This document shows positions 50,680 through 63,194 of a stretch of 64,000 nucleotides of DNA, in pieces; position 1 is the first letter of the stretch, and the number at the start of each line of letters is the position of its first letter. The notes under the pieces are model-generated. The model saw only the letters and a list, made by a program, of their open reading frames with translations, was not told the DNA's origin and did not search any database. Source of the DNA: Escherichia coli (GTDB taxonomy: Bacteria > Pseudomonadota > Gammaproteobacteria > Enterobacterales > Enterobacteriaceae); NCBI RefSeq assembly GCF_011045215.1, contig NZ_CP049201.1; one strand, given 5' to 3'. The translations under genes were made by a program, and so were the position numbers.

Positions 50680-52079
50680 ACACTCGCCAGCTACTGAGCG
50701 TCGGTATCGATATCGGCACTACCACCACCCAGGTGATTTTCTCCCACCTGGAACTGGTTAACCGTGCGGCGGTGTCGCAGGTGCCGCGCTACGAATTCAT
50801 CAAACGCGAAATTAGCTGGCAAAGCCCGGTGTTCTTTACCCCTGTCGATAAACAGGGTGATTTAAAAGAAGCGGAACTGAAATCGCTGATTTTAGAGCAA
50901 TATCAGGCTGCGGGCATTGCACCGGAAAGCGTTGATTCTGGTGCCATCATCATCACCGGTGAAAGCGCGAAAACCCGCAATGCTCGCCCGGCGGTGATGG
51001 CGCTCTCTCAGTCGCTGGGCGATTTTGTCGTTGCCAGCGCCGGGCCGCACCTCGAATCCGTGATCGCCGGTCACGGAGCCGGGGCACAAACCCTTTCTGA
51101 ACAACGGCTGTGTCGGGTACTGAATATCGACATCGGCGGTGGCACCGCGAACTACGCCCTGTTCGATGCCGGAAAAATCAGCGGCACTGCCTGCCTCAAC
51201 GTCGGTGGTCGCCTGCTGGAAACCGACAGCCAGGGGCGCGTGGTTTACGCTCATAAACCGGGGCAGATGATTGTGGATGAGTGCTTCGGCGCAGGCACCG
51301 ACGCCCGTTCGCTGACCGGCGCGCAGCTGGTGCAGGTTACCCGGCGGATGGCAGAGCTGATTGTCGAAGTGATTGACGGAACGCTCTCGCCGCTCGCGCA
51401 GGCATTGATGCAAACCGGTTTGCTGCCCGCAGGTGTTACGCCCGAAATCATTACGCTTTCTGGCGGCGTGGGCGAATGTTATCGCCACCAGCCCGCCGAC
51501 CCGTTCTGTTTTGCCGATATTGGCCCGCTTCTGGCAACGGCGCTGCATGACCATCCGCGCCTGCGTGAGATGAACGTGCAGTTTCCGGCGCAAACCGTGC
51601 GTGCCACGGTGATTGGCGCGGGGGCACATACCCTTTCGCTCTCTGGCAGCACAATCTGGCTTGAGGGCGTACAACTGCCGCTGCGCAATTTGCCGGTGGC
51701 GATCCCGATTGATGAAACGGATCTGGTGAGTGCCTGGCAACAGGCGCTGATTCAACTGGATCTTGATCCCAAAACTGACGCGTACGTGCTGGCGCTTCCC
51801 GCCTCGCTGCCTGTGCGTTACGCCGCGGTACTGACGGTCATCAACGCGTTGGTCGATTTCGTCGCGCGTTTTCCGAATCCGCATCCCCTGCTGGTGGTGG
51901 CCGGGCAGGACTTTGGTAAAGCTCTGGGCATGTTGTTGCGCCCACAGCTACAACAACTCCCGTTGGCAGTCATTGACGAAGTGATTGTCCGCGCGGGGGA
52001 CTATATCGACATTGGTACGCCTCTTTTTGGCGGATCGGTTGTGCCGGTGACGGTGAAATCACTCGCATTTCCTTCCTGA
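50676..52079 (+). CDS. eutA: Ethanolamine ammonia-lyase reactivase EutA
   Basis: 467-aa ORF, ATGA overlap with eutH; ends at the island junction. Confidence 0.85.
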   Translation: MNTRQLLSVGIDIGTTTTQVIFSHLELVNRAAVSQVPRYEFIKREISWQSPVFFTPVDKQGDLKEAELKSLILEQYQAAGIAPESVDSGAIIITGESAKTRNARPAVMALSQSLGDFVVASAGPHLESVIAGHGAGAQTLSEQRLCRVLNIDIGGGTANYALFDAGKISGTACLNVGGRLLETDSQGRVVYAHKPGQMIVDECFGAGTDARSLTGAQLVQVTRRMAELIVEVIDGTLSPLAQALMQTGLLPAGVTPEIITLSGGVGECYRHQPADPFCFADIGPLLATALHDHPRLREMNVQFPAQTVRATVIGAGAHTLSLSGSTIWLEGVQLPLRNLPVAIPIDETDLVSAWQQALIQLDLDPKTDAYVLALPASLPVRYAAVLTVINALVDFVARFPNPHPLLVVAGQDFGKALGMLLRPQLQQLPLAVIDEVIVRAGDYIDIGTPLFGGSVVPVTVKSLAFPS

Positions 52080-52172
52080 ATACTGTAGTTATCAGGCGTG
52101 GCGCTGGGTTGCGGGGTGTTAGTGGGATTATATCCGGCTGTGTATCCGGTCGGGGTGATTGGTCTGTATAGC

Positions 52173-52198
52173 AAAACCCGGCGCGGGGCCGGGTGAAC
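52173..52198 (-). terminator. Rho-independent terminator after island gene 52201-52764
   Basis: Minus strand reads ACCCGGCcccgcGCCGGGTTTTG; an identical hairpin recurs at 53821-53843. Confidence 0.55.
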
Positions 52199-52200
52199 TA

Positions 52201-52764
52201 TCATTCAGGGAACAAGTTGATTTGAAGCAAACTGCCAATGTATTTACCAGTGCTTTTAATTTTTCGCTTTGATGGCTTACACGAATTCAGGTTGACACCA
52301 GCCTGGCTAGATATTGGCTTGTATTGCCGCTCCGCCAGTACGATCAGGTCTGCCGCGTCTTTTAGCTTTCCATCGTTAGCCAGTTCCAATGCTCGATCCG
52401 CCATTTGCCCGCATTGTTGAATCAGCTTAAGTTGCGATACCTCCAGTCGCAATTGCTGGATTCGTTCTACCACTTTCGCCCTAATGCGCTTAGTTTCACG
52501 CATTCCCATTCTTAATGCCTGGTTGCCAGTAAGTGAGTAAACCTCTTTTTCTTTCCTGAAGTTTGCGGCTTTACCGTCAGCTTGGACGCGCATTTTATGC
52601 GCTTCCAAGAATTCGCCCTCCAATTCATCCCTGATCTTCGCGTTGAATCTGTCGTTCTTGAGTTCATTTAACCCTTCCGCCTTGCGGATCTGGTTGATTA
52701 ACTCCAACAATTCATCACTGCGGATACGCCACTCGCTATCAACCTGTACCAAGTCAAACATGTT
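52201..52764 (-). CDS. Hypothetical island protein (about 187 aa from ATG MFDLVQVD; track ORF extends to a TTG at 52854)
   Basis: ORF track; SD-like gggag upstream of the internal ATG; coiled-coil-rich; no confident family assignment. Confidence 0.5.
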   Translation of the reverse strand, partial: NMFDLVQVDSEWRIRSDELLELINQIRKAEGLNELKNDRFNAKIRDELEGEFLEAHKMRVQADGKAANFRKEKEVYSLTGNQALRMGMRETKRIRAKVVERIQQLRLEVSQLKLIQQCGQMADRALELANDGKLKDAADLIVLAERQYKPISSQAGVNLNSCKPSKRKIKSTGKYIGSLLQINLFPE

Positions 52765-52920
52765 GTTGCTCCCGTTTTGCTGCCATAGGGCAACGGCTCG
52801 CCAGCCTTTATCACCTCCTTTAGTTGTTGCGATTCTTAACTGAATGGTTATCAAAACGCTGCGTTAATATCATTGATATGTATCAAATTTGTTTTGTGAC
52901 GCGACAATGCCTTGTGAATA

Positions 52921-52948
52921 TCAATAAAAAACCCAGCGCTATGGCTGG
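52921..52948 (-). terminator. Rho-independent terminator after island gene 52995-53723
   Basis: Minus strand CCCAGCcatagcGCTGGG followed by TTTTTTATTG. Confidence 0.55.
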
Positions 52949-52994
52949 GCTTCTCTTGATGGCTGGTTTTGTAGCTAATCGTTGGCTTTAAGGG

Positions 52995-53723
52995 TTAAGC
53001 AACAATATTAATCCCGCTCCTTGTCGCTGCCTCTTTGGCAATTTTCCCCTCGTCCTCCAGTTTAGCTAACGCCTTGTACATCCAGTGGCGGCCCGGTGCG
53101 CCATGCAGCTTGCCATCTTTGCCGATCTTACCGAACGCATGTAACGCCAAATCGTCGATAGTCCCCTTGTATCCGCCTTGCTCCTTAAGCCATTGCTCAA
53201 GCTGTTCTACTTTGAATTTTGCCGGACGTCCGCCAGCCGCTTTTTGTTGTTTAGCTGGTTCTTCTGCAATATCGCTTTTGTTGTTTAAGTCCGTCATGAC
53301 TGGTTCTCCTACAATAGCGTCGCCCTTGGTCTCGATTTGTTGATTAACTGGTTTGTCTACAATATCGATTTTGTTGTTTAGCTGGTTTTTCAACATATCA
53401 ATCTCAGCCTTTAGCGCCTCGTTTTCTCTGGCTAGTTCTTCGCAACGCTTGATAAATTTTTGTTCCATGCCGTCCGGGCTATCAACGTGCGCCGTACCCA
53501 TTACGATCTTCCCGTTGCTATCGAAGATGACAGCTTGCCAACCGACTGCGGCGAGCATTTTAAACACATCATCAGCGGTCTTGTTTGTTGTATCGCGACG
53601 CCCTTTAAACTTGTGGCTAGCAGCGCCTTTGCCTTTGAAGCCCATTGCCTCAGCGACATCTTGCCGCGTCATCTTGCGAGCGCGCTTGTTCATGCCTAAC
53701 TCAACCCAATCCATGTATTCCAT
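52995..53723 (-). CDS. Hypothetical island protein, basic N-terminus plus coiled-coil and internal repeats
   Basis: 242-aa ORF; repeated NNKIDIVDKPVNQQ / NNKSDIAEEPAKQQ segments, mirrored by imperfect DNA tandem repeats around 53280-53400. Confidence 0.55.
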   Translation of the reverse strand: MEYMDWVELGMNKRARKMTRQDVAEAMGFKGKGAASHKFKGRRDTTNKTADDVFKMLAAVGWQAVIFDSNGKIVMGTAHVDSPDGMEQKFIKRCEELARENEALKAEIDMLKNQLNNKIDIVDKPVNQQIETKGDAIVGEPVMTDLNNKSDIAEEPAKQQKAAGGRPAKFKVEQLEQWLKEQGGYKGTIDDLALHAFGKIGKDGKLHGAPGRHWMYKALAKLEDEGKIAKEAATRSGINIVA

Positions 53724-53820
53724 ACATTACCTCATTTTGTCGCTAAACGTTTTGCTTTCTAATTTATCAACAAAAAAGCGGGTGATGGTAGCCGCTTTGA
53801 TGGGGAAGTTGACAGGGATC

Positions 53821-53843
53821 AAAAACCCGGCGCGGGGCCGGGT
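53821..53843 (-). terminator. Rho-independent terminator (second copy of the 52173 hairpin)
   Basis: Minus strand ACCCGGCcccgcGCCGGGTTTTTGATC, just downstream of gene 53861-54091. Confidence 0.55.
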
Positions 53844-53860
53844 ATTAGCAAGTTAGATGA

Positions 53861-54091
53861 TTACTGGGTATCGCTGTCAGAAAGTAGTCCAATTGATTTA
53901 AAGAATTTCATCACATCCTGATAGCGATACATGACGCCCCGCCCGGTTCCCAGCACATCAACAGGGTCGGGGAATGGAGTTCCGTTCTGTTCCCATTTCT
54001 TACGCCACGAATAAAACGTTCCCCTGCTAATTCCGCCCAGCATCCGGCAGATGGCAGGGCGGCTAAGAAGGATTACTTCATTTTTATCCAT
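53861..54091 (-). CDS. AlpA/excisionase-like HTH DNA-binding protein
   Basis: 76 aa; LSRPAICRMLGGISRGTFYSWRKKW resembles the AlpA-family HTH. Confidence 0.5.
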   Translation of the reverse strand: MDKNEVILLSRPAICRMLGGISRGTFYSWRKKWEQNGTPFPDPVDVLGTGRGVMYRYQDVMKFFKSIGLLSDSDTQ

Positions 54092-54110
54092 TGTTTAATC
54101 TCCCGTGTGT

Positions 54111-54299
54111 TTATTTTGCGTAGATTAAGGCAAATGCTCTTTTGGCTTTGCTTAGTTCGTATTCGCGTTTTTCTATGATTGCCATCAGTTCTTGTGCGGT
54201 GGCTGGCACGCCCGCTCTTATCAGCGCAATCTTAGTATCCATAGCGCACACTCTTTCACGCACCATATCGAAGATAATTTCCGCTCTATCGTGTTTCAT
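54111..54299 (-). CDS. Small hypothetical island protein (62 aa)
   Basis: ORF track; co-directional and closely spaced with the AlpA-like gene. Confidence 0.4.
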   Translation of the reverse strand: MKHDRAEIIFDMVRERVCAMDTKIALIRAGVPATAQELMAIIEKREYELSKAKRAFALIYAK

Positions 54300-54502
54300 G
54301 ATTTCACCTCATATTTGTTGCTAAACCTTGTAAACCCTTGTTTGACTACAAAATACACCTGGTTAAGCGACTGATAAAATGATTTAGGTCAATTTATTGG
54401 TTGATGATTTATGTCTGATTGGATTTGTCTACAAATGGCAGGTTAGTCAACAAATGATGAAACCAGGGAATGGCGGTTATAATGTCAGCGGGGATTGTGA
54501 GA

Positions 54503-54545
54503 AAGGCCCGGGTAGGTTGCTAACTGCCTGGGCCTTTATTTTTGG
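54503..54545 (+). terminator. Plus-strand rho-independent terminator candidate inside the minus-strand gene array
   Basis: aaaggcccgggtagg..cctgggccttt hairpin (about 14 bp stem with two G-U pairs) followed by atttttgg; on the minus strand no U-tract follows. Confidence 0.45.
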
Positions 54546-54648
54546 CGCGTGTACGTGAAATCTGGAAAATTTGCAGGGTAGTTGTTGAGGGATTTTTCGC
54601 GTAGGAGCGTGAAGGGTCCGCCAGTCATCGCCCTGACGTAGCGGTGAA

Positions 54649-55050
54649 TTACTTGCGAGGCTCACCCATCGGCCAGGCACCTTCATTGCGACGATAACCA
54701 ATCCGGTACTCTTCCGGCAGCGGCAAGCCCTGCTCACGATATGGACGCAGATCGAAGCCAAAAACAGGATCGTCGTCGTAGGCGAGGAATAGCCCGGCAG
54801 GCTCTGCCACGCGTTCGATAATCAGTTCCCCATCTTCAACGAAGAAGATCAGATTATCGCGAAAGTCCGTTACCTCACTGACGTGATAACATTCGGCATG
54901 TGCGTCCAGCCAGGCTTCTCGGTATTCCTGAATCTCGGCTTCTGACCATGTTGAAACAGGACGCTCCCAAATTCCCAGGCTGGATTTGCCCTGGCGGGAG
55001 AATAATTTTGCCTCTTTGCTCTGCTCTGGTTTTCTGTTTAAAAAGCTCAT
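54649..55050 (-). CDS. Hypothetical island protein (133 aa)
   Basis: ORF track; SD ggagaa upstream of ATG; start overlaps a TAA of an upstream open frame (TAATG). Confidence 0.5.
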   Translation of the reverse strand: MSFLNRKPEQSKEAKLFSRQGKSSLGIWERPVSTWSEAEIQEYREAWLDAHAECYHVSEVTDFRDNLIFFVEDGELIIERVAEPAGLFLAYDDDPVFGFDLRPYREQGLPLPEEYRIGYRRNEGAWPMGEPRK

Positions 55051-55186
55051 TATTCTTCTCCTTTGAACGGATTGTTCTTGCTCTCTAATAACTTAGCGCG
55101 ACCCAGTAACGTCCGGGCAAGCGCCTCCGCCTTCCTTAGCCTAAGCCCTGCGTCTTCTGCGTCCAGATCTACATTCCTGATAGCCT

Positions 55187-55450
55187 CTACAGCCTGCTCC
55201 GCTGCGTCCGGGCGTGAATCCACTTAAATATGCCGATATGCTCACGAAAGTCTGGATGCTCATATTGCCAGCGGCAGATTGTTCTGAAGCTCGGCATGTC
55301 AGGCATGTTGCCAATCTCTCTGAGACTATGGCCTTCAGCTACCAGCAAGCAGATTTCTTCAGCGATAGCGACCCCATACTTAGCGCTTTTTCTGCTTAAA
55401 CTTGTGACATCAACAGGTAAGTTATTGATTTCTTTATCATCACCCTTCAT
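55187..55450 (-). CDS. Hypothetical HTH-like island protein (87 aa)
   Basis: ORF track; SLREIGNMPDMPSFRTICRWQ segment is HTH-like; preceded by the 11-bp repeat array. Confidence 0.45.
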   Translation of the reverse strand: MKGDDKEINNLPVDVTSLSRKSAKYGVAIAEEICLLVAEGHSLREIGNMPDMPSFRTICRWQYEHPDFREHIGIFKWIHARTQRSRL

Positions 55451-55522
55451 AATTACCCCCGAATTGATAGCGAATTGATAGCGAATTACCCCGAATTACC
55501 CCCGAATTACCCCCGAATCACC
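55450..55522. repeat. Array of seven 10-11 bp direct repeats (gaattaccccc / gaattgatagc)
   Basis: taattaccccc, gaattgatagc x2, gaattacccc, gaattaccccc x2, gaatcacc, read directly from sequence. Confidence 0.9.
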
Positions 55523-55527
55523 ATCAT

Positions 55528-55809
55528 TTAACCCTCGCCTACGTCTGCGTCGATGCTTGCTAACTGGCTGTGTAGATCGCGTTCAATCATTTTTACCTTT
55601 TTCACAAAATCCCTTTCCTCGGCGGTGGCGGGCGCGCCCTGGGCTATGTTTTTCGTGAGGTCGTGGAAAGTGCCGAAAACATAAAGGGAGAACAGCCTTA
55701 ATTGTTGCCGCTTCATTGGCAAATCACTGTTGCTATGTTTGATCTCAGCGACGCCTTTCGAAATAACACGGGCCATCCCATGACAAATTCTTAACGTAAG
55801 CGCAGACAT
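55528..55809 (-). CDS. Hypothetical island protein (93 aa)
   Basis: ORF track only. Confidence 0.4.
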   Translation of the reverse strand: MSALTLRICHGMARVISKGVAEIKHSNSDLPMKRQQLRLFSLYVFGTFHDLTKNIAQGAPATAEERDFVKKVKMIERDLHSQLASIDADVGEG

Positions 55810-55930
55810 GATATTTACTCCCCGACTGGTATAATGAACGTGGTTTTAAACGTTGCTATTTGCTAACCATTTAATCTGTTAACTCAATTTCGCATTGTTG
55901 GCCCGGCACGAACACCGGGCTTTTCTTTAC

Positions 55931-56272
55931 CTATTCGAAATAGCTTCCAATATCCGGTGTCCGGGTATCAGTTTTCCGGGTCGGCTCGAAGTACGATTCC
56001 AGATCCGGCGTTTTCGGCCCACGCTGGGCGTTGGCGGCGGGTTGCTTTTCTTCTGGCTGTTCCGGCTGTTTACTACCAAATCGGCGCTCCAGTTGGTCCA
56101 TCAGCACTACCATCATTTCCTGGACCAGCTTTTCATCGGCTTTATCAAGGTTCTCCAATACCATCGCCATCCCTTTGCGGAATTTAAGCTCAGCGTCGTC
56201 CGGTTCCGGTGCTGATTCGTTTGCTTTAACTGCCAGGGCGATCCGGCGTTTTGCTTCATCCAAAAAATTCAT
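55931..56272 (-). CDS. Hypothetical acidic island protein ending in SYFE motifs (113 aa)
   Basis: ORF track; C-terminus DLESYFEPTRKTDTRTPDIGSYFE. Confidence 0.5.
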   Translation of the reverse strand: MNFLDEAKRRIALAVKANESAPEPDDAELKFRKGMAMVLENLDKADEKLVQEMMVVLMDQLERRFGSKQPEQPEEKQPAANAQRGPKTPDLESYFEPTRKTDTRTPDIGSYFE

Positions 56273-56277
56273 TTTGT

Positions 56278-56721
56278 TTATTCCCCCATGTGGAAATAGT
56301 CATCTAAGCGGCGATTAAACTCGTCGCTGCCATCGAAATATTCACGGATACTTTTATTGACCAGATCATCACCGTCGAAATACTGGCGCGTGAAATCGTC
56401 CAATTCCCCATCGAAGTATTGACGTGTGAAATCGTCTAATTCCCCTTCAAAATATTGACGCGCATCAGGCGCTCTGTTTGGCGCTGTAGCAATCTCAGAT
56501 TGATTGCCCTGTAACTTATCGACGTTTGCTAAATACACGCCCAGTGAGCTGTTTGTTCCCATTACCGCAAGCATTTTCCGGCGATCTGCCATGTTCGGCG
56601 CGAGCGATGATAATTGAGCTTTAATTTTGTCCACTTCCTGATTAACAATACGGTCAATCAGTGGTTGATTCGTGCGAATAATTTCCTGTGCCAACTGGCG
56701 AATATATTCTTTGCGTGTCAT
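56278..56721 (-). CDS. Hypothetical island protein with tandem QYF[ED]GELDDFTR repeats (147 aa)
   Basis: ORF track; encoded by 36-bp tandem DNA repeats at about 56376-56463. Confidence 0.5.
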   Translation of the reverse strand: MTRKEYIRQLAQEIIRTNQPLIDRIVNQEVDKIKAQLSSLAPNMADRRKMLAVMGTNSSLGVYLANVDKLQGNQSEIATAPNRAPDARQYFEGELDDFTRQYFDGELDDFTRQYFDGDDLVNKSIREYFDGSDEFNRRLDDYFHMGE

Positions 56722-56739
56722 TTCTTATCTCCGTTCATC

Positions 56740-57123
56740 TCATTTCTGTAAAAAACCCATACCGTGGCCCAGGCGATTTGAAATTTTCCCGGCAAGCATC
56801 CGGCGAATATGTTTTTCGTTGATGATGTCGTGAGTGACCGGATCTTCACCTTTCATACATTCCGGCATCTGGTCAAACAATACGGAAGCGCCTTCATCAA
56901 TAATCTCAGTTAAGACTGCTGGCAGCATATTAATGATGCGTTCTGCTTCGTCGTTCATTGCTTTATCGAACGCTTTTTTATCCATTGCTTCGGCGGATGG
57001 TTTGTAATTGTCGCCAGTCAGGTTAAGGTAAGTGTTGTTTGGGTGATACATGGCATTCACTCCTTTTACTTTGATTGTTGCGATTTCTTTGTTTTTGTTA
57101 ATTGTGGTGCCTTTGACTTTCAT
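56740..57123 (-). CDS. Hypothetical island protein (127 aa)
   Basis: ORF track; ATGA start/stop overlap with the upstream HNH-like gene. Confidence 0.45.
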   Translation of the reverse strand: MKVKGTTINKNKEIATIKVKGVNAMYHPNNTYLNLTGDNYKPSAEAMDKKAFDKAMNDEAERIINMLPAVLTEIIDEGASVLFDQMPECMKGEDPVTHDIINEKHIRRMLAGKISNRLGHGMGFLQK

Positions 57124-57539
57124 GCTGCTTCTTCCTTCAATAATTGTGGCAATTTGCCTGTTAGTTCGATTTCTTCATTAATAGATGCAAGTAACTGTCT
57201 CAGTTTGCGATGTAATAGCTGGTGACGCTCTCTCGGCATTTTTACCAGGTTGCTTAAGCGGTTATTCTGCGGATCGTAGTCCCGGTGATGGATATCATAT
57301 TTTCGCTCATCGTAAACACCGTAGCACCATAACCAGGCAGCCTTTTCTATTGTCATGCAGGTACGTTTTCCGTTGCTTAAACAAATGGTTATACTCAGGT
57401 GACCGCGATGTTTTTCGTTTAAGCTGCCTTTAATTACCTGGCCTGTGCTGCGGTTGTGAAATAAACCAGTTTCAGGGTCGTAGTGATATTTCTGTCGTAA
57501 TATATCAACTGATAACCGTAGTCTTGTAAGATTGTCCAT
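57120..57539 (-). CDS. HNH-family endonuclease-like protein
   Basis: 139 aa; AAWLWCYGVYDERKYDIHHRDYDPQNNRLSNL resembles the phage HNH_3 pattern (from memory). Confidence 0.55.
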   Translation of the reverse strand: MDNLTRLRLSVDILRQKYHYDPETGLFHNRSTGQVIKGSLNEKHRGHLSITICLSNGKRTCMTIEKAAWLWCYGVYDERKYDIHHRDYDPQNNRLSNLVKMPRERHQLLHRKLRQLLASINEEIELTGKLPQLLKEEAA

Positions 57540-57571
57540 GATGTTCTACCTCAATGTGATTGCTGTGTTAA

Positions 57572-57757
57572 TTATCTTTCTTCTTGTGGCCTATTCAGCC
57601 AGGCCTCGATCTCGCTACGCCAGAATAATAAACGACAATTTCGCGGCGTAAATGGTTGGGGTATTGTCTTATCTTTTAATAGCCATCTTCGAATCGTTCT
57701 TGTTGATACCCCCGCTATTAATGCGAAAGCTCGCAGATCTATAACTTCATCTCTCAT
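57572..57757 (-). CDS. AlpA-family transcriptional regulator
   Basis: Internal ATG with SD gaggt; MRDEVIDLRAFALIAGVSTRTIRRWL...LFWRSEIEAWL matches the AlpA HTH signature; the track's N-terminal extension is low-complexity repeat translation. Confidence 0.6.
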   Translation of the reverse strand: MRDEVIDLRAFALIAGVSTRTIRRWLLKDKTIPQPFTPRNCRLLFWRSEIEAWLNRPQEER

Positions 57758-57780
57758 GTTCTTACCTCGATTAAAAAGGA

Positions 57781-57839
57781 CCGCCCCCAGGGAAAGAAGA
57801 AAGAGGAAAGAGGAAAGAGGAAAAACTTCCTGGAGGCGG
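57781..57839. repeat. Homopurine heptamer repeat (GAAAGAR x4) inside an 11-bp inverted repeat
   Basis: ccgcccccagg [agggaaagaagaaagaggaaagaggaaagaggaaaaa] cttcctggaggcgg; 24-82 nt upstream of the AlpA-like start codon. Confidence 0.85.
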
Positions 57840-58537
57840 GTAATTCGGATTCCTTGAATCAATATCCCATGTGATACTTAATATTATAAAGGGCGGCGGG
57901 CTATGTCGCTATTTTTGCCATAGTGTGACACCATTAATTTATTAACAAAAAGTGCTATTTATTAAATCTTTTTTCGGCAGGTGCAAGAAAAATAATTGCG
58001 ACACGGTAGGGTAGCGGGCGATAATAATCATGTAAGGAGTAGCCACCTTACGCCTCCAAATGTGATCGATAAAAATAATAGTCTCAATTCTTTCTCCCGC
58101 TTCTCGGCGGTTTTTTTGCCTGCAATCACACATCAAAAAAACACATCGAATTGATATGCCTTTAAAACGCAATATAACGCATTTTGACGGCCTTAATTTT
58201 TGCCTATCCACTCGGAAGCGTAAGCCTGTTTTGATTCGTCTGGCGTGGAATGGTGCGGCGGTAATATCAGATCTCAGCGTTCTGTGTGGTGGGATGGAAT
58301 AGCCTGGCAGGATCTGCGTGTGATTTCATTCATCCAACCTTGGATGAATGGTCCGATCTGGTCAGTAGTCCGGCACAAATAAAAAGCGCCTGCGGGCGTA
58401 GCAGACGCTTTGTGTACAGGCTTATCAGTACGGGATGTGCACGAATGATTATACCACCCTCAGAAAAACGTTTGCTTTTGCACTTAAACGGATAAGTGGT
58501 ATTTCTTGGTCTTCATTGGTTTTAGCTCACCATAGGC

Positions 58538-58765
58538 TCATTTAGGTGCGCCCCTGTCGATAATTCGGTACATGTTCTCGGTATATCTCCCGTTAATCAC
58601 CGTTCTGGTAACAACAATCACACCGTTTTCCTCCAGAAAGGCAATGGCCCGCTTCACTCCCTGGCGGCTTACACCGGATAGCTGCGCCAGCCTGTCAATG
58701 GAGATGTTGTATTTGTCCGGCTGGCTTGTCAGGATCTGGAATACCGCTCGTGCTGTTTTCGTCAT
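58538..58765 (-). CDS. Winged-helix/HTH DNA-binding protein (75 aa), candidate island regulator
   Basis: ISIDRLAQLSGVSRQGVKRAIAFLEENGVIV HTH-like segment; divergent from the plus-strand cargo module. Confidence 0.5.
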   Translation of the reverse strand: MTKTARAVFQILTSQPDKYNISIDRLAQLSGVSRQGVKRAIAFLEENGVIVVTRTVINGRYTENMYRIIDRGAPK

Positions 58766-59037
58766 GGCAAAAACTCATTGAAATTGGATACCCTTAGAAC
58801 GCTCTCAAACGCTCCGTAATGCGATGAGAATTTTACCTAAGCAAGTGTAGCTCTTTATTAGTTTTATGATGCCGTAGGCCGATAGAAGGTGCGCTCTCTG
58901 AAGTTTCATTGTCTATCAGTGGTGGGTAATGCTGCCTTTACTATTGGCGTCAAGAAAATCACTGGTGTAGATTGGGCGAATAGTTTACTATTCAAACAAG
59001 GCACAATGGCCTTAGCGGATTGATGTCAGGAGATACC

Positions 59038-59385
59038 ATGTCAAAAATAGTTACTTTGTTTGCGACTAAGCGAGAAGGGAAATCCCTTTCTGTGCGCACT
59101 CGTAAGCCAAAAGCTATGACTGGCTTGCGTAAAACAAATCGTCTGACGCATCTTGACGCGTTAGCGTATCGACTAGGATACCAGTTGGTGCGCGGTAAAA
59201 GTGTCATGTTTCGCTACACTGCTACTCTCGATCACGAAGAAAACAAAGTGATGAATGCGGCCTCGCCTATGGCTGTACCACGAGTAAAAAAAATGACGTT
59301 CACACAAGCGTGTGATTTATCAAAAGATTTATTCGATTCACGAGAAGAACGCTTAAAGAGTGTAAGCTTTGATGGTCCAGAATGA
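59038..59385 (+). CDS. Hypothetical basic protein (115 aa), candidate antitoxin or partner of downstream gene
   Basis: ATG at 59038 with SD aggaga 5 nt upstream; stop overlaps the downstream start by 14 nt; AT-rich. Confidence 0.5.
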   Translation: MSKIVTLFATKREGKSLSVRTRKPKAMTGLRKTNRLTHLDALAYRLGYQLVRGKSVMFRYTATLDHEENKVMNAASPMAVPRVKKMTFTQACDLSKDLFDSREERLKSVSFDGPE

Positions 59386-59887
59386 ATTTATTGGTAAGGT
59401 CTACAGTGATAACAAGTTTAAAACAAACGATGAATTAAAGAGCTTTAAGGATTCGTTTATTTATCATTGGAGATATGGACATCATCCTGATTTTGGAAAG
59501 GATACTCTTTTCCATAAACCCCCGTGTGTATATCCTATCCATTTACGTAAAGTCCATGTAAATATTGGTCTTTATACCAATCAGTACGGCTATAGCGGGA
59601 CAGAACAATGCTGGGATGACTGGTCTACTGGTCGTTATGGTCCCGGTGGTTTCGAAAAAGTTACCCCTACATCTGATGCTTATCTTATATACGCTGTATG
59701 TAAAAATAGAAATGCTGGCGTGTTAGACTTCTGGTTTCCTCCCGCACACAAAAACGCTGAGTTCGAATCCTCTGTACAGTTTGTGGCTGAGATGGCTGAT
59801 AAGTTTTATGAGTCTATCAAGGCGGACCCGATGCCGCGCGATCAGAATCCTTGGCATACGGGGTATATAGTTAAAAAACCAGCCTGA
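59372..59887 (+). CDS. YafO-like toxin-domain candidate (171 aa)
   Basis: FIYHWRYGHHPDFGKDTLF...HLRKVHVN...SDAYLIYAV resembles remembered YafO motifs (FISYKRDG..PDTFGRDALY, HIHL, AHLVYC); family assignment unverified. Confidence 0.45.
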   Translation: MVQNEFIGKVYSDNKFKTNDELKSFKDSFIYHWRYGHHPDFGKDTLFHKPPCVYPIHLRKVHVNIGLYTNQYGYSGTEQCWDDWSTGRYGPGGFEKVTPTSDAYLIYAVCKNRNAGVLDFWFPPAHKNAEFESSVQFVAEMADKFYESIKADPMPRDQNPWHTGYIVKKPA

Positions 59888-60438
59888 TCCACGCAATACT
59901 GATTGTTTTTGGCCTTGTATGGTGTGGTCTGATTTGAGGCAAAATTATTTAATCCCTTAAAAAACTAACTTCAAAAGACTAAAACCAGGGGGATGGTCCC
60001 TCTCGCTCCGCTCCAGGTACCATCCCTGTCGGGATGGGTTTATTGTAGAGTTAAAATTAATTACTCACATCGTCACACCTTGCGAAAGTTTTGCTCAATT
60101 ATCATTCAAACATAGCACAAAAAATATTCGATTTAGTTAGTGTGCACTGACTTTTTTATCAATTTACTTTCATTCGAAAGTCATGGGTTAAATATTAATC
60201 ATCTGGCTGTGGCACGCATGGATTCACCGAGGGTATTTTGGACCATTTGGTCAAAATTCATAAGTACATGATTTCATGGTGATTTATTTTTCTGTATCTT
60301 GCTTTCATTCGAAAGTGGAAACGAAGAATTGGCAATTTATTGATTCAGATCATTGACATTGCATATTTGTGGCGGTTGTCACGGTTGTTTTTTGAGCGCT
60401 TCAACCGTCGATATTGAGTATAAACCCGGCCTTATAGT

Positions 60439-61644
60439 TCACGGTTCAAGTGGATTACCGTCACCAGCCAATATTGAATCAATAGCGTCGGCGTAATCCT
60501 GCATCATTGCTCGCCGTTGCTTCAGGTAGGCCGCCTGGTTATAAACGCCGCGCACACCTTTCGGGACGTGGGCCAATTGGATTTCGATCCAGTCTGGTGA
60601 GTATCTGCCAGACTCATTAAGCGCCGTTGAAAAGGTGGTCCGCCAGCCATGACCAGTGGCAATGGATTTATAGCCGATCCTCTCAAGCGCCTTCAGTATC
60701 GCGCTGGCTGAAAGTGGCTTATCCATGAATCGACCAGGGAAGACGAAAGCACTGTATCCGCTCCTTGTAAACTGGTCCTGTAATAGCTCCACCGCCTGCC
60801 GTGATAGCGGGACCACATGCGGGCGGCGGGCCTTCATGACTTCAGCGGGCAATGTGATTGTTGCGTCCTCCAGGTTTATCCATTCCCAACGGCACAAACG
60901 CAGTTCTGCGGTCCTTAATGCCGTTAATATAAGCAAACGTATTGCCGTCTGAATCTGGACGCTCCCGGCCCTCTCAAGGGCTTTGTAGAAGGCCGGAATT
61001 TCACTAATCGGTATCCACGCGTTGTGACCAGGTCGGCGGGCCTTCAGTGCCGTATCAAGATCTGCAACCGGATTCCTCGTTACCAGTTCGGTGATAACGG
61101 CAAACTTGAAGATCTCACCGATGCGCTGGCGTAGCTTGCGGGCCTGCTCCGGTGCGGTACGTTCTTTCTTCTGGAGTAATGCCAGCACGTCACGGGCGGT
61201 TATATCGACAATCGACCGCTTGCCAAGTACCGGATAGACGTCTTTTTCTAGGGCCGATCTGACCTGTTTTGCATAGGATTCCGACCACCCTCCAACCCTA
61301 GTAGCAAACCAGTCTTCCGCCACCTTCTTAAATCCTGCCGCCATGTTGAGCGCATCAATGGCTTTTTCCTTGCGGGCTTGTTCCACTGGGTTAATTCCAT
61401 TGGCAATAAGGGATCTGCTCTCCGTGGCGCGCCTGCGTGCTTCTTTGAGTGTGATTAGCGGGTAAACACCAATAGCCTGCAAAAACTCTCGTTTATTCAA
61501 CCAATACCTGAATCGCCAGTATTTCGAACCGTTGGGATGCACCAGCAAAAACAGCCCCGGCGTCAGTGAATCGGTGAGTTTATAGGGCTTGTCCTGCGGC
61601 TGTGCGGCGTCTATGGCCTTTGCTGTGAGTGGTGTCTTGCTCAA
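60439..61644 (-). CDS. intZ: P4-type tyrosine integrase
   Basis: 401-aa ORF; N-terminal arm-binding-like domain plus catalytic region (HGWRTT...RGVYN); at the island edge next to eutB as for CPZ-55 IntZ. Confidence 0.85.
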   Translation of the reverse strand: MSKTPLTAKAIDAAQPQDKPYKLTDSLTPGLFLLVHPNGSKYWRFRYWLNKREFLQAIGVYPLITLKEARRRATESRSLIANGINPVEQARKEKAIDALNMAAGFKKVAEDWFATRVGGWSESYAKQVRSALEKDVYPVLGKRSIVDITARDVLALLQKKERTAPEQARKLRQRIGEIFKFAVITELVTRNPVADLDTALKARRPGHNAWIPISEIPAFYKALERAGSVQIQTAIRLLILTALRTAELRLCRWEWINLEDATITLPAEVMKARRPHVVPLSRQAVELLQDQFTRSGYSAFVFPGRFMDKPLSASAILKALERIGYKSIATGHGWRTTFSTALNESGRYSPDWIEIQLAHVPKGVRGVYNQAAYLKQRRAMMQDYADAIDSILAGDGNPLEP

Positions 61645-61832
61645 AACCGGATACCTTGATTTAACGACTGGATAACCCCGATCATGTATCCGGCGCGTTC
61701 GGTTGCGTTCGGCAGGATAAGTAACGGGCGTATTAAGTGGAACACCTTACAGGACAAGGGCTAACGATGAAATAGAATTGTTTGCAGGCTGTGAGAAATG
61801 TTAATCGTCACTTCTTCCTGAGGGAACGACTT

Positions 61833-63194
61833 ATGAAACTAAAGACCACATTGTTCGGCAATGTATATCAGTTTAAGGATGTAAAAGAGGTGCTGGCTAA
61901 AGCCAACGAACTGCGTTCGGGGGATGTGCTGGCGGGCGTCGCAGCGGCAAGCTCACAGGAGCGCGTGGCGGCAAAGCAGGTGTTGTCGGAAATGACCGTA
62001 GCGGACATCCGCAATAATCCGGTGATTGCCTATGAAGATGACTGCGTGACGCGGCTGATTCAGGACGATGTTAACGAAACGGCCTACAACCAGATTAAAA
62101 ACTGGAGCATCAGCGAACTGCGTGAGTATGTGCTGAGCGATGAAACCAGCGTGGACGACATTGCCTTTACCCGCAAAGGGCTGACCTCGGAAGTGGTCGC
62201 GGCGGTAGCGAAGATTTGCTCCAACGCGGACCTGATCTACGGCGCGAAGAAAATGCCGGTAATCAAAAAGGCCAATACCACCATCGGTATTCCGGGCACC
62301 TTCAGCGCCCGTTTGCAGCCAAATGACACTCGTGACGACGTGCAAAGTATCGCCGCGCAAATCTACGAAGGGCTTTCCTTCGGGGTGGGCGATGCGGTGA
62401 TCGGCGTTAACCCGGTGACTGACGACGTGGAAAACTTAAGCCGCGTGCTGGATACCATTTATGGCGTGATCGACAAATTCAACATCCCAACTCAGGGCTG
62501 CGTACTGGCGCACGTCACCACTCAGATCGAAGCGATTCGTCGTGGCGCACCAGGCGGGCTGATTTTCCAGAGTATCTGTGGCAGTGAAAAAGGGCTGAAA
62601 GAGTTTGGCGTGGAACTTGCGATGCTCGACGAAGCGCGCGCAGTGGGTGCAGAGTTCAACCGTATCGCCGGGGAAAACTGCCTCTACTTCGAAACCGGAC
62701 AAGGTTCAGCGCTATCCGCTGGCGCTAACTTCGGCGCAGACCAGGTGACGATGGAAGCACGTAACTATGGGCTGGCGCGTCATTACGATCCGTTTATCGT
62801 CAACACCGTGGTCGGCTTTATTGGGCCGGAGTATCTCTACAACGACCGCCAGATTATCCGTGCGGGCTTAGAAGATCACTTTATGGGCAAGCTGAGCGGC
62901 ATCTCTATGGGCTGTGACTGCTGTTACACCAACCACGCTGACGCTGACCAGAACCTCAACGAAAACCTGATGATCCTGCTCGCCACCGCAGGCTGCAACT
63001 ACATCATGGGGATGCCGTTGGGCGATGACATCATGCTCAACTACCAGACCACGGCCTTCCACGACACTGCCACTGTGCGTCAGTTACTCAACCTGCGCCC
63101 GTCACCGGAGTTTGAACGCTGGCTGGAAAGCATGGGCATTATGGCAAACGGTCGCTTGACCAAACGGGCGGGCGATCCGTCACTGTTCTTCTGA
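61833..63194 (+). CDS. eutB: Ethanolamine ammonia-lyase large subunit EutB
   Basis: ATG at 61833 gives MKLKTTLFGNVYQFKDVKEVLAKANE (453 aa); SD gaggga. Confidence 0.9.
   Translation: MKLKTTLFGNVYQFKDVKEVLAKANELRSGDVLAGVAAASSQERVAAKQVLSEMTVADIRNNPVIAYEDDCVTRLIQDDVNETAYNQIKNWSISELREYVLSDETSVDDIAFTRKGLTSEVVAAVAKICSNADLIYGAKKMPVIKKANTTIGIPGTFSARLQPNDTRDDVQSIAAQIYEGLSFGVGDAVIGVNPVTDDVENLSRVLDTIYGVIDKFNIPTQGCVLAHVTTQIEAIRRGAPGGLIFQSICGSEKGLKEFGVELAMLDEARAVGAEFNRIAGENCLYFETGQGSALSAGANFGADQVTMEARNYGLARHYDPFIVNTVVGFIGPEYLYNDRQIIRAGLEDHFMGKLSGISMGCDCCYTNHADADQNLNENLMILLATAGCNYIMGMPLGDDIMLNYQTTAFHDTATVRQLLNLRPSPEFERWLESMGIMANGRLTKRAGDPSLFF

What the first reader, a model, noticed from the sequence alone, without database searches (positions are those of the whole stretch)
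55053..55223. Unannotated open frame between two island genes, coupled by TAATG to the downstream gene
The 136-bp apparent gap between the 87-aa and 133-aa genes is open in a different minus-strand frame for 57 codons (stop at 55224-55226 to TAA at 55050-55052) and has no ATG (only GTG at 55223). Its TAA overlaps the ATG of the 133-aa gene. Either it is the frameshifted C-terminus of the 87-aa HTH-like protein (fusion of about 130 aa) or a small GTG-initiated coupled ORF.
Basis: seen in the sequence. Interest (0 to 1): 0.4.

Follow-up and report, generated by a model that had tools for sequence, protein, structure and literature searches.

The report
Frameshifted small-terminase-like gene, not a new ORF
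The "unannotated open frame" is the displaced back half of a phage small-terminase-like gene (a relative of E. coli K-12 yffO) that one missing base splits in this sequence, so it is an ordinary broken gene or a sequencing slip, not a new small gene.

Summary
On the minus strand a 57-codon frame (55050-55223) is open, has only a GTG start, and its TAA overlaps the ATG of the 133-aa gene.

It is not an independent gene. In 18 related E. coli loci that were checked, the 87-aa ORF and this frame form one 402-bp, 133-aa gene, named "terminase small subunit-like protein" in some records (Pfam PF20901). The window lacks one A (CACGCCC[A]GGACGC, between 55210 and 55209).

- With the A restored, the protein matches Sf6 terminase small subunit gp1 across the break in both sequence and predicted fold. 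It is 48% identical to K-12 YffO.
- The gene lies in a 9.7-kb island of the CPZ-55 type, inserted between eutA and eutB.
- 52 of the 57 codons are native C-terminal codons, with 7 synonymous and 0 non-synonymous differences from diverged alleles.
- The GTG has no Shine-Dalgarno sequence, and there is no slippery site for programmed frameshifting.

Whether the deletion is a real mutation (my estimate about 0.6) or an assembly error (about 0.3) is unresolved. All 34 core genes checked in the window are intact. However, a second unique 1-bp deletion lies 285 bp away. The same SRA sample also holds a paralogous island copy in which this gene is intact.

Interest is low.

The parts
55210..55450 (-). 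5' part of the terS-like (yffO-family) gene. It holds codons 1-80 in the native frame plus the first base of codon 81, and encodes the HTH DNA-binding domain and the first half of long helix 66-92.
   Evidence: Pfam PF20901 positions 4-47. tblastn of the intact homologue places residues 1-81 at 55450-55208 in frame -2. Alignment with four homologues. AF2 helices at 27-38, 43-47, 55-64 and 66-92.
55209..55210 (-). Site of the 1-bp deletion. The window reads CACGCCC|GGACGC where relatives read CACGCCCAGGACGC, so the A of codon 81 (CAG) is missing. In relatives the site contains CCAGG.
   Evidence: alignment; 16 loci carry the version with the A and only the window lacks it; the paralogous copy in the same sample has the A.
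55187..55209 (-). Out-of-frame tail of the 87-aa ORF: seven aberrant residues (RTQRSRL) and then TAG.
   Evidence: Translation, compared with the intact proteins.
55050..55223 (-). The reported 57-codon open frame. Codons 6-57 (55208-55053) are native codons 82-133 of the terS-like gene (end of helix 66-92, helix 101-126, C-terminal tail), followed by the native TAA. Codons 1-5 (GTG GAT TCA CGC CCG) are out-of-frame readings of the upstream part.
   Evidence: tblastn places residues 82-133 at 55208-55053 in frame -1 with 100% identity. There are 7 synonymous and 0 non-synonymous codon differences against the L006 and L010 alleles. The Pfam match extends to profile position 91 once the gene is repaired. 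PDB Sf6 gp1 aligns over residues 23-107.
54649..55050 (-). Downstream 133-aa gene of unknown function. In intact relatives its start overlaps the terS-like stop by 1 nt (TAATG). It has its own AAGGAG Shine-Dalgarno sequence.
55460..55522 (-). Array of 11-bp tandem repeats (ATTCGGGGGTA and ATTCGCTATCA) that fills the space between the upstream gene and the terS-like ATG. The last unit supplies the Shine-Dalgarno sequence. The window's third unit is a unique 10-bp unit (G4 instead of G5).
   Evidence: 4 matches in the window against 0.14 expected by chance.
55528..55809 (-). Upstream 93-aa island gene of unknown function, intact.
   Evidence: 100% identical to the homologue in L006.
52080..61804 (.). 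CPZ-55-type island inserted between eutA (ends at 52079) and eutB (starts at 61833). It carries an IntZ-type integrase (60439-61644, minus strand), an HNH endonuclease (57120-57539, minus strand), HTH proteins, and a YafO-family toxin gene on the plus strand together with the gene that overlaps its start.
   Evidence: PMC6379469 for the CPZ-55 site.

Best explanation
The 57-codon frame is not a gene of its own. It is the 3' third of a 402-bp gene for a 133-aa Sf6-type terminase-small-subunit-like protein of the same family as E. coli K-12 YffO, carried on a CPZ-55-type island between eutA and eutB. In this sequence one A is missing between 55210 and 55209, so translation from the ATG at 55450 leaves the native frame after residue 80. 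It adds seven wrong residues and stops at the TAG at 55189-55187. The native C-terminal 52 codons and the native TAA, which overlaps the next gene's ATG, are left stranded in the -1 frame. I take the deletion to be a genuine, recent inactivating mutation. If so, the cell makes an 87-aa product that keeps the N-terminal helix-turn-helix domain. It loses the end of the first long helix and all of the second, which form the helical hairpin that builds the ring in terminase small subunits. Termination-reinitiation coupling to the downstream 133-aa gene is also lost, and that gene must rely on its own AAGGAG ribosome-binding site. Shown here: the deletion, the single ORF in relatives, and the Sf6 gp1-like sequence and fold. 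Inferred: that the truncated product cannot oligomerise, that the deletion is real rather than an error, and any role of the intact protein in DNA packaging.
For: In all 8 close matches in complete E. coli genomes, the 87-aa ORF and this frame are one 402-bp CDS that abuts the next gene. The same holds in 10 of 10 loci found through the exact downstream protein. The window differs from four of them by a single missing A. 16 loci carry CACGCCCAGGACGC and only the window lacks the A. The repaired protein hits PF20901 at profile positions 4-91, against 4-47 for the 87-aa ORF. It also hits phrog_1482 terS and PDB Sf6 gp1 at E about 3e-8 over residues 23-107, spanning the break. The AF2 model (pLDDT 83) has an HTH plus two long helices, and Foldseek returns only Sf6 gp1 (probability 1.0, TM about 0.55). 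It is 48% identical to K-12 YffO at the same chromosomal site. The C-terminal part is conserved across the family, with 7 synonymous and 0 non-synonymous differences. This is the only island gene split across two frames; 14 others are collinear. In favour of a real mutation: all 34 core genes checked are intact. No indel occurs in 35.5 kb of core CDS that holds 95 CCWGG sites and 118 homopolymers of 5 or more. The island also shows other loss, a missing 2.5-kb gene whose junction is confirmed by an independent short-read assembly.
Against: A real mutation cannot be told from a consensus error using the sequence alone. A second 1-bp deletion unique to the window (G5 to G4) lies 285 bp away in the repeat array. 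The missing A sits in a CCAGG site. Both deletions fall in the 434 bp not covered by the two Logan contigs of the same strain. That sample also holds a roughly 98%-similar paralogous copy, a setting in which assembly or polishing can fail. The stranded C-terminal codons have acquired no further damage, which fits either a very recent mutation or an artefact. Neither the 87-aa product nor the allele lacking the A was found in any other dataset.
Confidence: 0.62

Rival explanations
1. Sequencing or assembly error. The gene is intact (133 aa) in the cell, and the missing A, like the nearby G5-to-G4 change, is a consensus error in a locally difficult, duplicated stretch.
For: The window has two unique single-base deletions within 300 bp. 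One is in a G5 run and the other is inside CCAGG. Both lie in 55150-55583, the only part of the island region not covered by the two 100%-identical Logan contigs of the same strain. The same sample contains a paralogous copy of this stretch with the A present and only 4 synonymous differences. There is no secondary decay of the C-terminal codons. The 87-aa product is not on record even for that sample.
Against: No indel occurs in 35.5 kb of core coding sequence, which includes 95 CCWGG sites and 118 homopolymers of 5 or more, so the assembly is not generally indel-prone. The missing A is not within a homopolymer. The window keeps its own copy-specific SNPs, so the two copies were resolved. The repeat array varies naturally among strains, and the paralogue also has a point change in a G run.
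Confidence: 0.3
2. An independent small protein of 57 aa is initiated at the GTG at 55223 and translationally coupled to the downstream gene through TAATG.
For: The frame is open, begins with GTG, and ends in TAATG. The peptide would be a helical fragment.
Against: There is no Shine-Dalgarno sequence upstream of the GTG (-1.9 kcal/mol against -8.7 and -9.9 for the adjacent real starts). The GTG lies inside the translated 87-aa ORF. In none of the 18 related loci checked is this stretch separate from the 133-aa gene. The conservation pattern is that of the C-terminus of the long protein. The TAATG overlap is inherited from the intact gene.
Confidence: 0.03
3. Programmed -1 ribosomal frameshifting or transcriptional slippage joins the two frames to give the full-length protein from this template.
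For: The two frames overlap by 12 codons and the shift required is -1.
Against: The gene contains no X XXY YYZ heptamer, and the overlap has no homopolymer of 4 or more. Rfam gives no hit. All relatives encode the protein in one frame, so the two-frame layout is not conserved.
Confidence: 0.02

Closest known systems
E. coli K-12 YffO (b2446), cryptic prophage CPZ-55
   Same: Same chromosomal site (between eutA and eutB, with an IntZ-type integrase) and similar size (138 against 133 aa). It is 48% identical (E 7e-29) and hits the same Pfam family. Its stop also overlaps the start of the next gene. The homology of YffO to Sf6 gp1 is already published (PMC10380284).
   Different: This is a different allele group, found at DNA level in only 14 of 5426 complete genomes. 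The downstream partner is an unrelated 133-aa protein rather than YffP. The window's copy is frameshifted.
Shigella phage Sf6 terminase small subunit gp1 (PDB 3HEF, 4DZJ, 4DZP; Pfam PF20901)
   Same: The sequence match is above the Pfam cut-off (47.6 against 27 bits). The predicted fold is the same: an N-terminal HTH followed by a two-helix hairpin. General TerS architecture is described in PMC9611059.
   Different: The protein ends about 7 residues after the second long helix, and no beta-strands are predicted. It therefore appears to lack the beta-barrel stalk and C-terminal tail of gp1. The island has no large-terminase gene. Identity is only about 27%.
Rpp proteins of E. coli PICIs (PMC6739421) and SaPI-encoded TerS
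   Same: These are small DNA-binding proteins, carried on an integrase-bearing island, that are related to or mimic a phage TerS. They provide the model for how an island-borne TerS-like protein could redirect helper-phage packaging.
   Different: The PDB sequence search down to E = 10 returned no Rpp match. The fold is Sf6-like rather than winged-HTH plus coiled coil. No PICI-type primase or replicase was recognised in the island. The functional parallel is inference only.

Membership tests
Pfam PF20901 Sf6_terminase / YffO family | Whole-protein HMM score above the curated cut-off | tested here: met
   The repaired protein scores 47.6 bits against a cut-off of 27, over profile positions 4-91. 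The 87-aa fragment scores 44.3 bits over positions 4-47 only. YffO scores 37.5 bits.
Pfam PF20901 Sf6_terminase / YffO family | N-terminal HTH followed by a helical-hairpin oligomerisation core | tested here: met
   AF2 pLDDT is 83, with helices at 27-38, 43-47, 55-64, 66-92 and 101-126. Foldseek returns only Sf6 gp1 chains, at probability 1.0.
Functional phage terminase small subunit (TerS) | C-terminal stalk or tail that binds TerL | tested here: not met
   The model predicts no strand. The protein ends 7 residues after helix 101-126, and its alignment with gp1 ends near gp1 residue 96-122 of 140.
Functional phage terminase small subunit (TerS) | Adjacent large-terminase gene or other packaging genes | tested here: not met
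   The downstream gene is a 133-aa protein of unknown family. No TerL, portal or capsid hits were found in the island ORFs scanned.
Functional phage terminase small subunit (TerS) | Ring oligomer that binds a pac or cos site and stimulates TerL | not testable with these tools
   This needs biochemistry. The phased 11-bp repeats upstream are only a candidate binding site.
Programmed -1 ribosomal frameshift | Slippery X XXY YYZ heptamer in the overlap, and a two-frame layout conserved in relatives | tested here: not met
   No heptamer and no homopolymer of 4 or more. All relatives encode the protein in a single frame.
Independent small ORF | Own start codon with a ribosome-binding site, and conservation as a separate unit | tested here: not met
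   Anti-SD pairing is -1.9 kcal/mol. The stretch is not separate from the 133-aa gene in any of the 18 related loci checked.
Rpp (PICI redirecting-phage-packaging protein) | Sequence or fold similarity to RppA or RppC | tested here: not met
   The PDB sequence search down to E = 10 lists only Sf6 gp1 and one unrelated chain. Foldseek finds no Rpp among its significant hits.
CPZ-55-type island | IntZ-type integrase and insertion between eutA and eutB | tested here: met
   The window breaks collinearity with an island-free genome at 52079 and 61805. intZ is annotated in homologous islands. The K-12 layout is shown, and the site is described in PMC6379469.

The most novel reading that the evidence does not exclude
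CPZ-55/YffO-type islands may be an undescribed family of phage satellites. On this reading, the intact 133-aa Sf6-like protein, which seems to lack a TerL-binding tail, assembles on the phased 11-bp repeat array just upstream of its gene. That array has 5-8 units with a period of about one helical turn. The array would serve as an island-specific packaging signal, and the protein would divert a helper phage's terminase. The HNH endonuclease and, in relatives, a tape-measure-like protein would be further hijacking factors. The window's copy would then be a recently disabled element that the intact paralogue in the same strain could still serve in trans.
Probability: 0.2. Interest if true: 0.55.

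Novelty: already known. Interest (0 to 1): 0.12.

Why it matters
This matters mainly for annotation. The 87-aa ORF and the "gap" should be called as one frameshifted pseudogene of the yffO / terminase-small-subunit-like family, or as an intact 133-aa gene if resequencing restores the A. They should not be called as two genes or as a new small ORF.

It also gives a dated example of decay in a CPZ-55-type island: a frameshift plus loss of a 2.5-kb gene. The wider island family, with its TerS-like protein, phased repeat array, HNH endonuclease and tape-measure-like gene, is uncharacterised. It may deserve study in its own right, but that goes beyond this finding.

Tried and rejected
- **Exact-protein look-ups.** Neither the 87-aa product nor the repaired 133-aa protein is on record.
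- **Pattern scans for the deletion site.** A pattern covering the site with or without the A found nothing in metagenome contigs or viral contigs. The repeat-array pattern is also absent from viral contigs. A peptide-pattern scan of viral contigs gave only two distant relatives. Nothing therefore shows the island in viral collections.
- **Programmed frameshift or slippage.** Rejected: no slippery heptamer, no homopolymer, and the two-frame layout is not conserved.
- **Independent GTG ORF.** Rejected: no Shine-Dalgarno sequence, and the stretch is never separate from the 133-aa gene in the related loci checked.
- **Rpp membership.** Rejected: no sequence or fold match.
- **Rfam.** No hit anywhere in the island.
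- **Literature.** No paper holds both "CPZ-55" and "satellite", and I found no functional work on yffL-yffS beyond the YffO/Sf6 gp1 homology note.
- **Recovering the site from the independent Logan assembly of the same strain.** The two matching contigs stop at 55584 and 55149, on either side of the site. The contig that does cover this stretch belongs to a paralogous island copy.

Full report
**1. The observation.** Reading the minus strand of window 54500-55700 and translating it confirms every stated detail.
- TAA lies at 55226-55224 and GTG at 55223-55221.
- 57 sense codons follow, containing no ATG.
- TAA lies at 55052-55050, and its last A is the first base of the ATG of the 133-aa gene (54649-55050), giving TAATG.
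- The 87-aa ORF occupies 55187-55450, and the apparent gap is 136 bp.

An open stretch of 57 codons is only mildly unusual here. From base composition P is about 0.04, and 6.5% of shuffles of the segment stay open. Length alone therefore proves nothing.

**2. What the two ORFs are.** The 87-aa ORF hits Pfam PF20901 (Sf6_terminase), but only over profile positions 4-47 of 106, so it looks like a truncated protein.

A megablast of the region against 5426 complete E. coli genomes found 8 close matches (93-99% identity), each 2 bases longer than the query. In all 8 the annotation shows one 402-bp CDS of 133 aa, called "terminase small subunit-like protein" in some records. Its last base is the first base of a second 402-bp CDS.

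Aligning four of them with the window shows one difference that matters. The window reads CACGCCC-GGACGC where the others read CACGCCCAGGACGC. The missing A lies between window positions 55210 and 55209.

Inserting it gives a 133-aa protein that matches:
- PF20901 over profile positions 4-91;
- PHROG 1482, "terminase small subunit";
- the solved Sf6 gp1 structures, at E about 3e-8 over residues 23-107, straight across the break.

The 87-aa product therefore consists of 80 native residues plus 7 wrong ones (RTQRSRL). Codons 6-57 of the "new" frame are native codons 82-133, and its first five codons are out-of-frame readings of upstream sequence. tblastn with the proteins of a homologous island shows the same split: residues 1-81 fall in one frame (55450-55208) and residues 82-133 in the next (55208-55053). 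The 14 other shared island genes are collinear and unbroken.

**3. Wider support.** The exact downstream 133-aa protein is recorded in 1359 blocks of the assembly collection. In all 10 places displayed, the gene just upstream is a 133-aa Sf6_terminase protein overlapping it by one base. Sixteen fetched loci carry the motif with the A, and only the window lacks it.

Protein searches find a small family restricted to E. coli. There are 9 clusters, all of 133-134 aa, and 14 of 5426 genomes carry the gene at DNA level. There are also 880 more distant representatives.

The C-terminal part is strongly conserved, even in the 40-48% identical relatives. Between the window and the 93%-identical alleles, codons 82-133 show 7 synonymous and 0 non-synonymous differences. 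That frame has therefore been under purifying selection as part of the long protein.

An AlphaFold model of the repaired protein (pLDDT 83) has three short helices forming the HTH (27-38, 43-47, 55-64) and two long helices (66-92, 101-126). Foldseek against the PDB returns only Sf6 gp1 chains at probability 1.0. The break after residue 80 falls in the middle of the first long helix.

In terminase small subunits this helical hairpin forms the oligomerisation core (PMC9611059). From this I infer that the 87-aa product could keep DNA binding but could not form the ring.

**4. Context.** The window is E. coli chromosome running from hyfA to eutC. Positions 52080-61804 are a 9.7-kb island of lower G+C content, inserted between eutA and eutB. 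This is the site of the K-12 cryptic prophage CPZ-55 (PMC6379469).

The island carries:
- an IntZ-type integrase;
- an HNH endonuclease;
- several HTH proteins;
- a YafO-family toxin gene together with the gene that overlaps its start, per the annotation of related islands;
- genes of unknown function.

The repaired protein is 48% identical to K-12 YffO (E 7e-29). YffO also hits PF20901, and its stop also overlaps the next gene. That YffO resembles Sf6 gp1 has already been published (PMC10380284).

The protein is not an Rpp, since there is no sequence or fold match (PMC6739421). It also differs from a working phage TerS. It ends 7 residues after the second long helix with no predicted beta-strands, and the island has no large-terminase gene. 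Two defining TerS features are therefore not met. Its function in the intact state is unknown. Redirecting a helper phage's packaging, as island-borne TerS proteins and Rpp do, is only an analogy.

**5. Rivals to "displaced C-terminus".**
- *Independent initiation at the GTG* is unlikely. Pairing of the upstream 20 nt with the anti-SD sequence is -1.9 kcal/mol, against -8.7 and -9.9 for the two neighbouring genuine starts. The GTG also lies inside the translated 87-aa ORF.
- *Programmed -1 frameshifting or slippage* is unlikely. There is no X XXY YYZ heptamer and no homopolymer of 4 or more in the overlap, Rfam gives no hit, and relatives encode the protein in a single frame.
- The TAATG overlap is simply the original junction of the intact gene with its downstream partner.

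**6. Real mutation or error?** This question remains open.

For a real mutation:
- All 34 core genes compared with the closest complete genome are full length with no gaps.
- Every indel in 37 kb of aligned core sequence is intergenic. None falls in the 35.5 kb of core CDS, although it holds 95 CCWGG sites and 118 homopolymers of 5 or more.
- The island also lacks a roughly 2.5-kb tape-measure-like gene that relatives carry. Two contigs from SRA run SRR11014969, assembled independently, are 100% identical to the window over 8.3 kb, and one of them spans that junction.

For an error:
- A second 1-bp deletion unique to the window (G5 to G4) lies 285 bp away in the repeat array.
- The missing A sits within CCAGG.
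- Both deletions fall in the 434 bp (55150-55583) that those two contigs do not cover.
- The same sample contains a second, paralogous island copy. There the gene has the A, and its partial product equals the first 110 residues of my repaired protein. It differs from the window's gene at only 4 synonymous positions. A near-duplicate stretch like this is where assembly and polishing can go wrong.
- The stranded codons show no further decay.

I estimate about 0.6 for a real mutation and about 0.3 for an error. Either way, the reported frame is the C-terminus of the terS-like gene.

**7. Verdict.** The feature is a frameshifted copy (or mis-sequenced copy) of a known but functionally uncharacterised gene family, inside a known kind of cryptic island. 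It is ordinary and scores low.

The more interesting material lies outside the finding:
- the phased 11-bp repeat array that always precedes this allele group of the gene;
- the apparent lack of a TerL-binding tail;
- the variable tape-measure-like cassette.

Together these leave open, at roughly 0.2 probability, that these islands are an undescribed type of phage satellite.

Noticed in passing
window 55460-55522 (minus strand); same position in L001-L004, L006, L008-L010, L012-L021, L024: An array of exact 11-bp tandem units (ATTCGGGGGTA and ATTCGCTATCA) fills the space between the upstream gene and the terS-like ATG. Across 20 related loci it has 4-7 units in varying combinations. Only the window has a 10-bp unit (G4 instead of G5). 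A period of about one helical turn next to a TerS-like gene suggests a binding or packaging site, but this is untested. The more distant yffO-type alleles (K-12, K99B) lack the array.
   Followed up: partly
window 54617-54626; L006 3110-3120 and 5611-5620: The window lacks a cassette of about 2.5 kb that relatives carry just downstream of the 133-aa gene. The cassette encodes a 726-790-aa tape-measure-like or coiled-coil protein (PF10145/PF20155). In L006 a 9-bp direct repeat, CCGCCAGTC, flanks the cassette, and the window has a single copy of it. An independent Logan contig confirms the junction.
   Followed up: partly
L024 (Logan SRR11014969 contig 424), compared with window 55120-55874: The sample whose contigs are 100% identical to the window also holds a second, paralogous island copy. 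Its terS-like gene is intact and encodes the same first 110 residues, with 4 synonymous differences. Its upstream 93-aa gene aligns at well under 80% nucleotide identity (81% over the whole 764-column alignment). It could complement the broken copy in trans, and it complicates assembly of this stretch.
   Followed up: partly
window 52063-52079 and 61805-61821; island 52080-61804: The island splits the eut operon between eutA and eutB, as CPZ-55 does in K-12. It is flanked by imperfect repeats ending in TTCCTGA. eutA and eutB themselves are intact.
   Followed up: partly
window 56375-56462, 57791-57823, 53332-53399: The island holds further tandem repeats. A 36-bp in-frame repeat (2.4 copies) lies inside the 147-aa gene and gives a repeated QYFDGELDDFTR peptide. 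A 7-bp GGAAAGA repeat (4.7 copies) lies upstream of an HTH gene. A 34-bp repeat (2 copies) lies inside the 242-aa gene.
   Followed up: no
window 57120-57539 (minus strand): An HNH endonuclease gene (PF13392) overlaps the next gene by 4 nt, in the same operon as the terS-like gene. HNH proteins assist terminases in some cos phages. Its role here is unknown.
   Followed up: no
protein library, e.g. P0049, P0053, P0054: Many distant relatives of the query are 200-340 aa long and contain 2-4 tandem copies of the Sf6-like HTH module. This architecture differs from the single-module TerS-like proteins.
   Followed up: no
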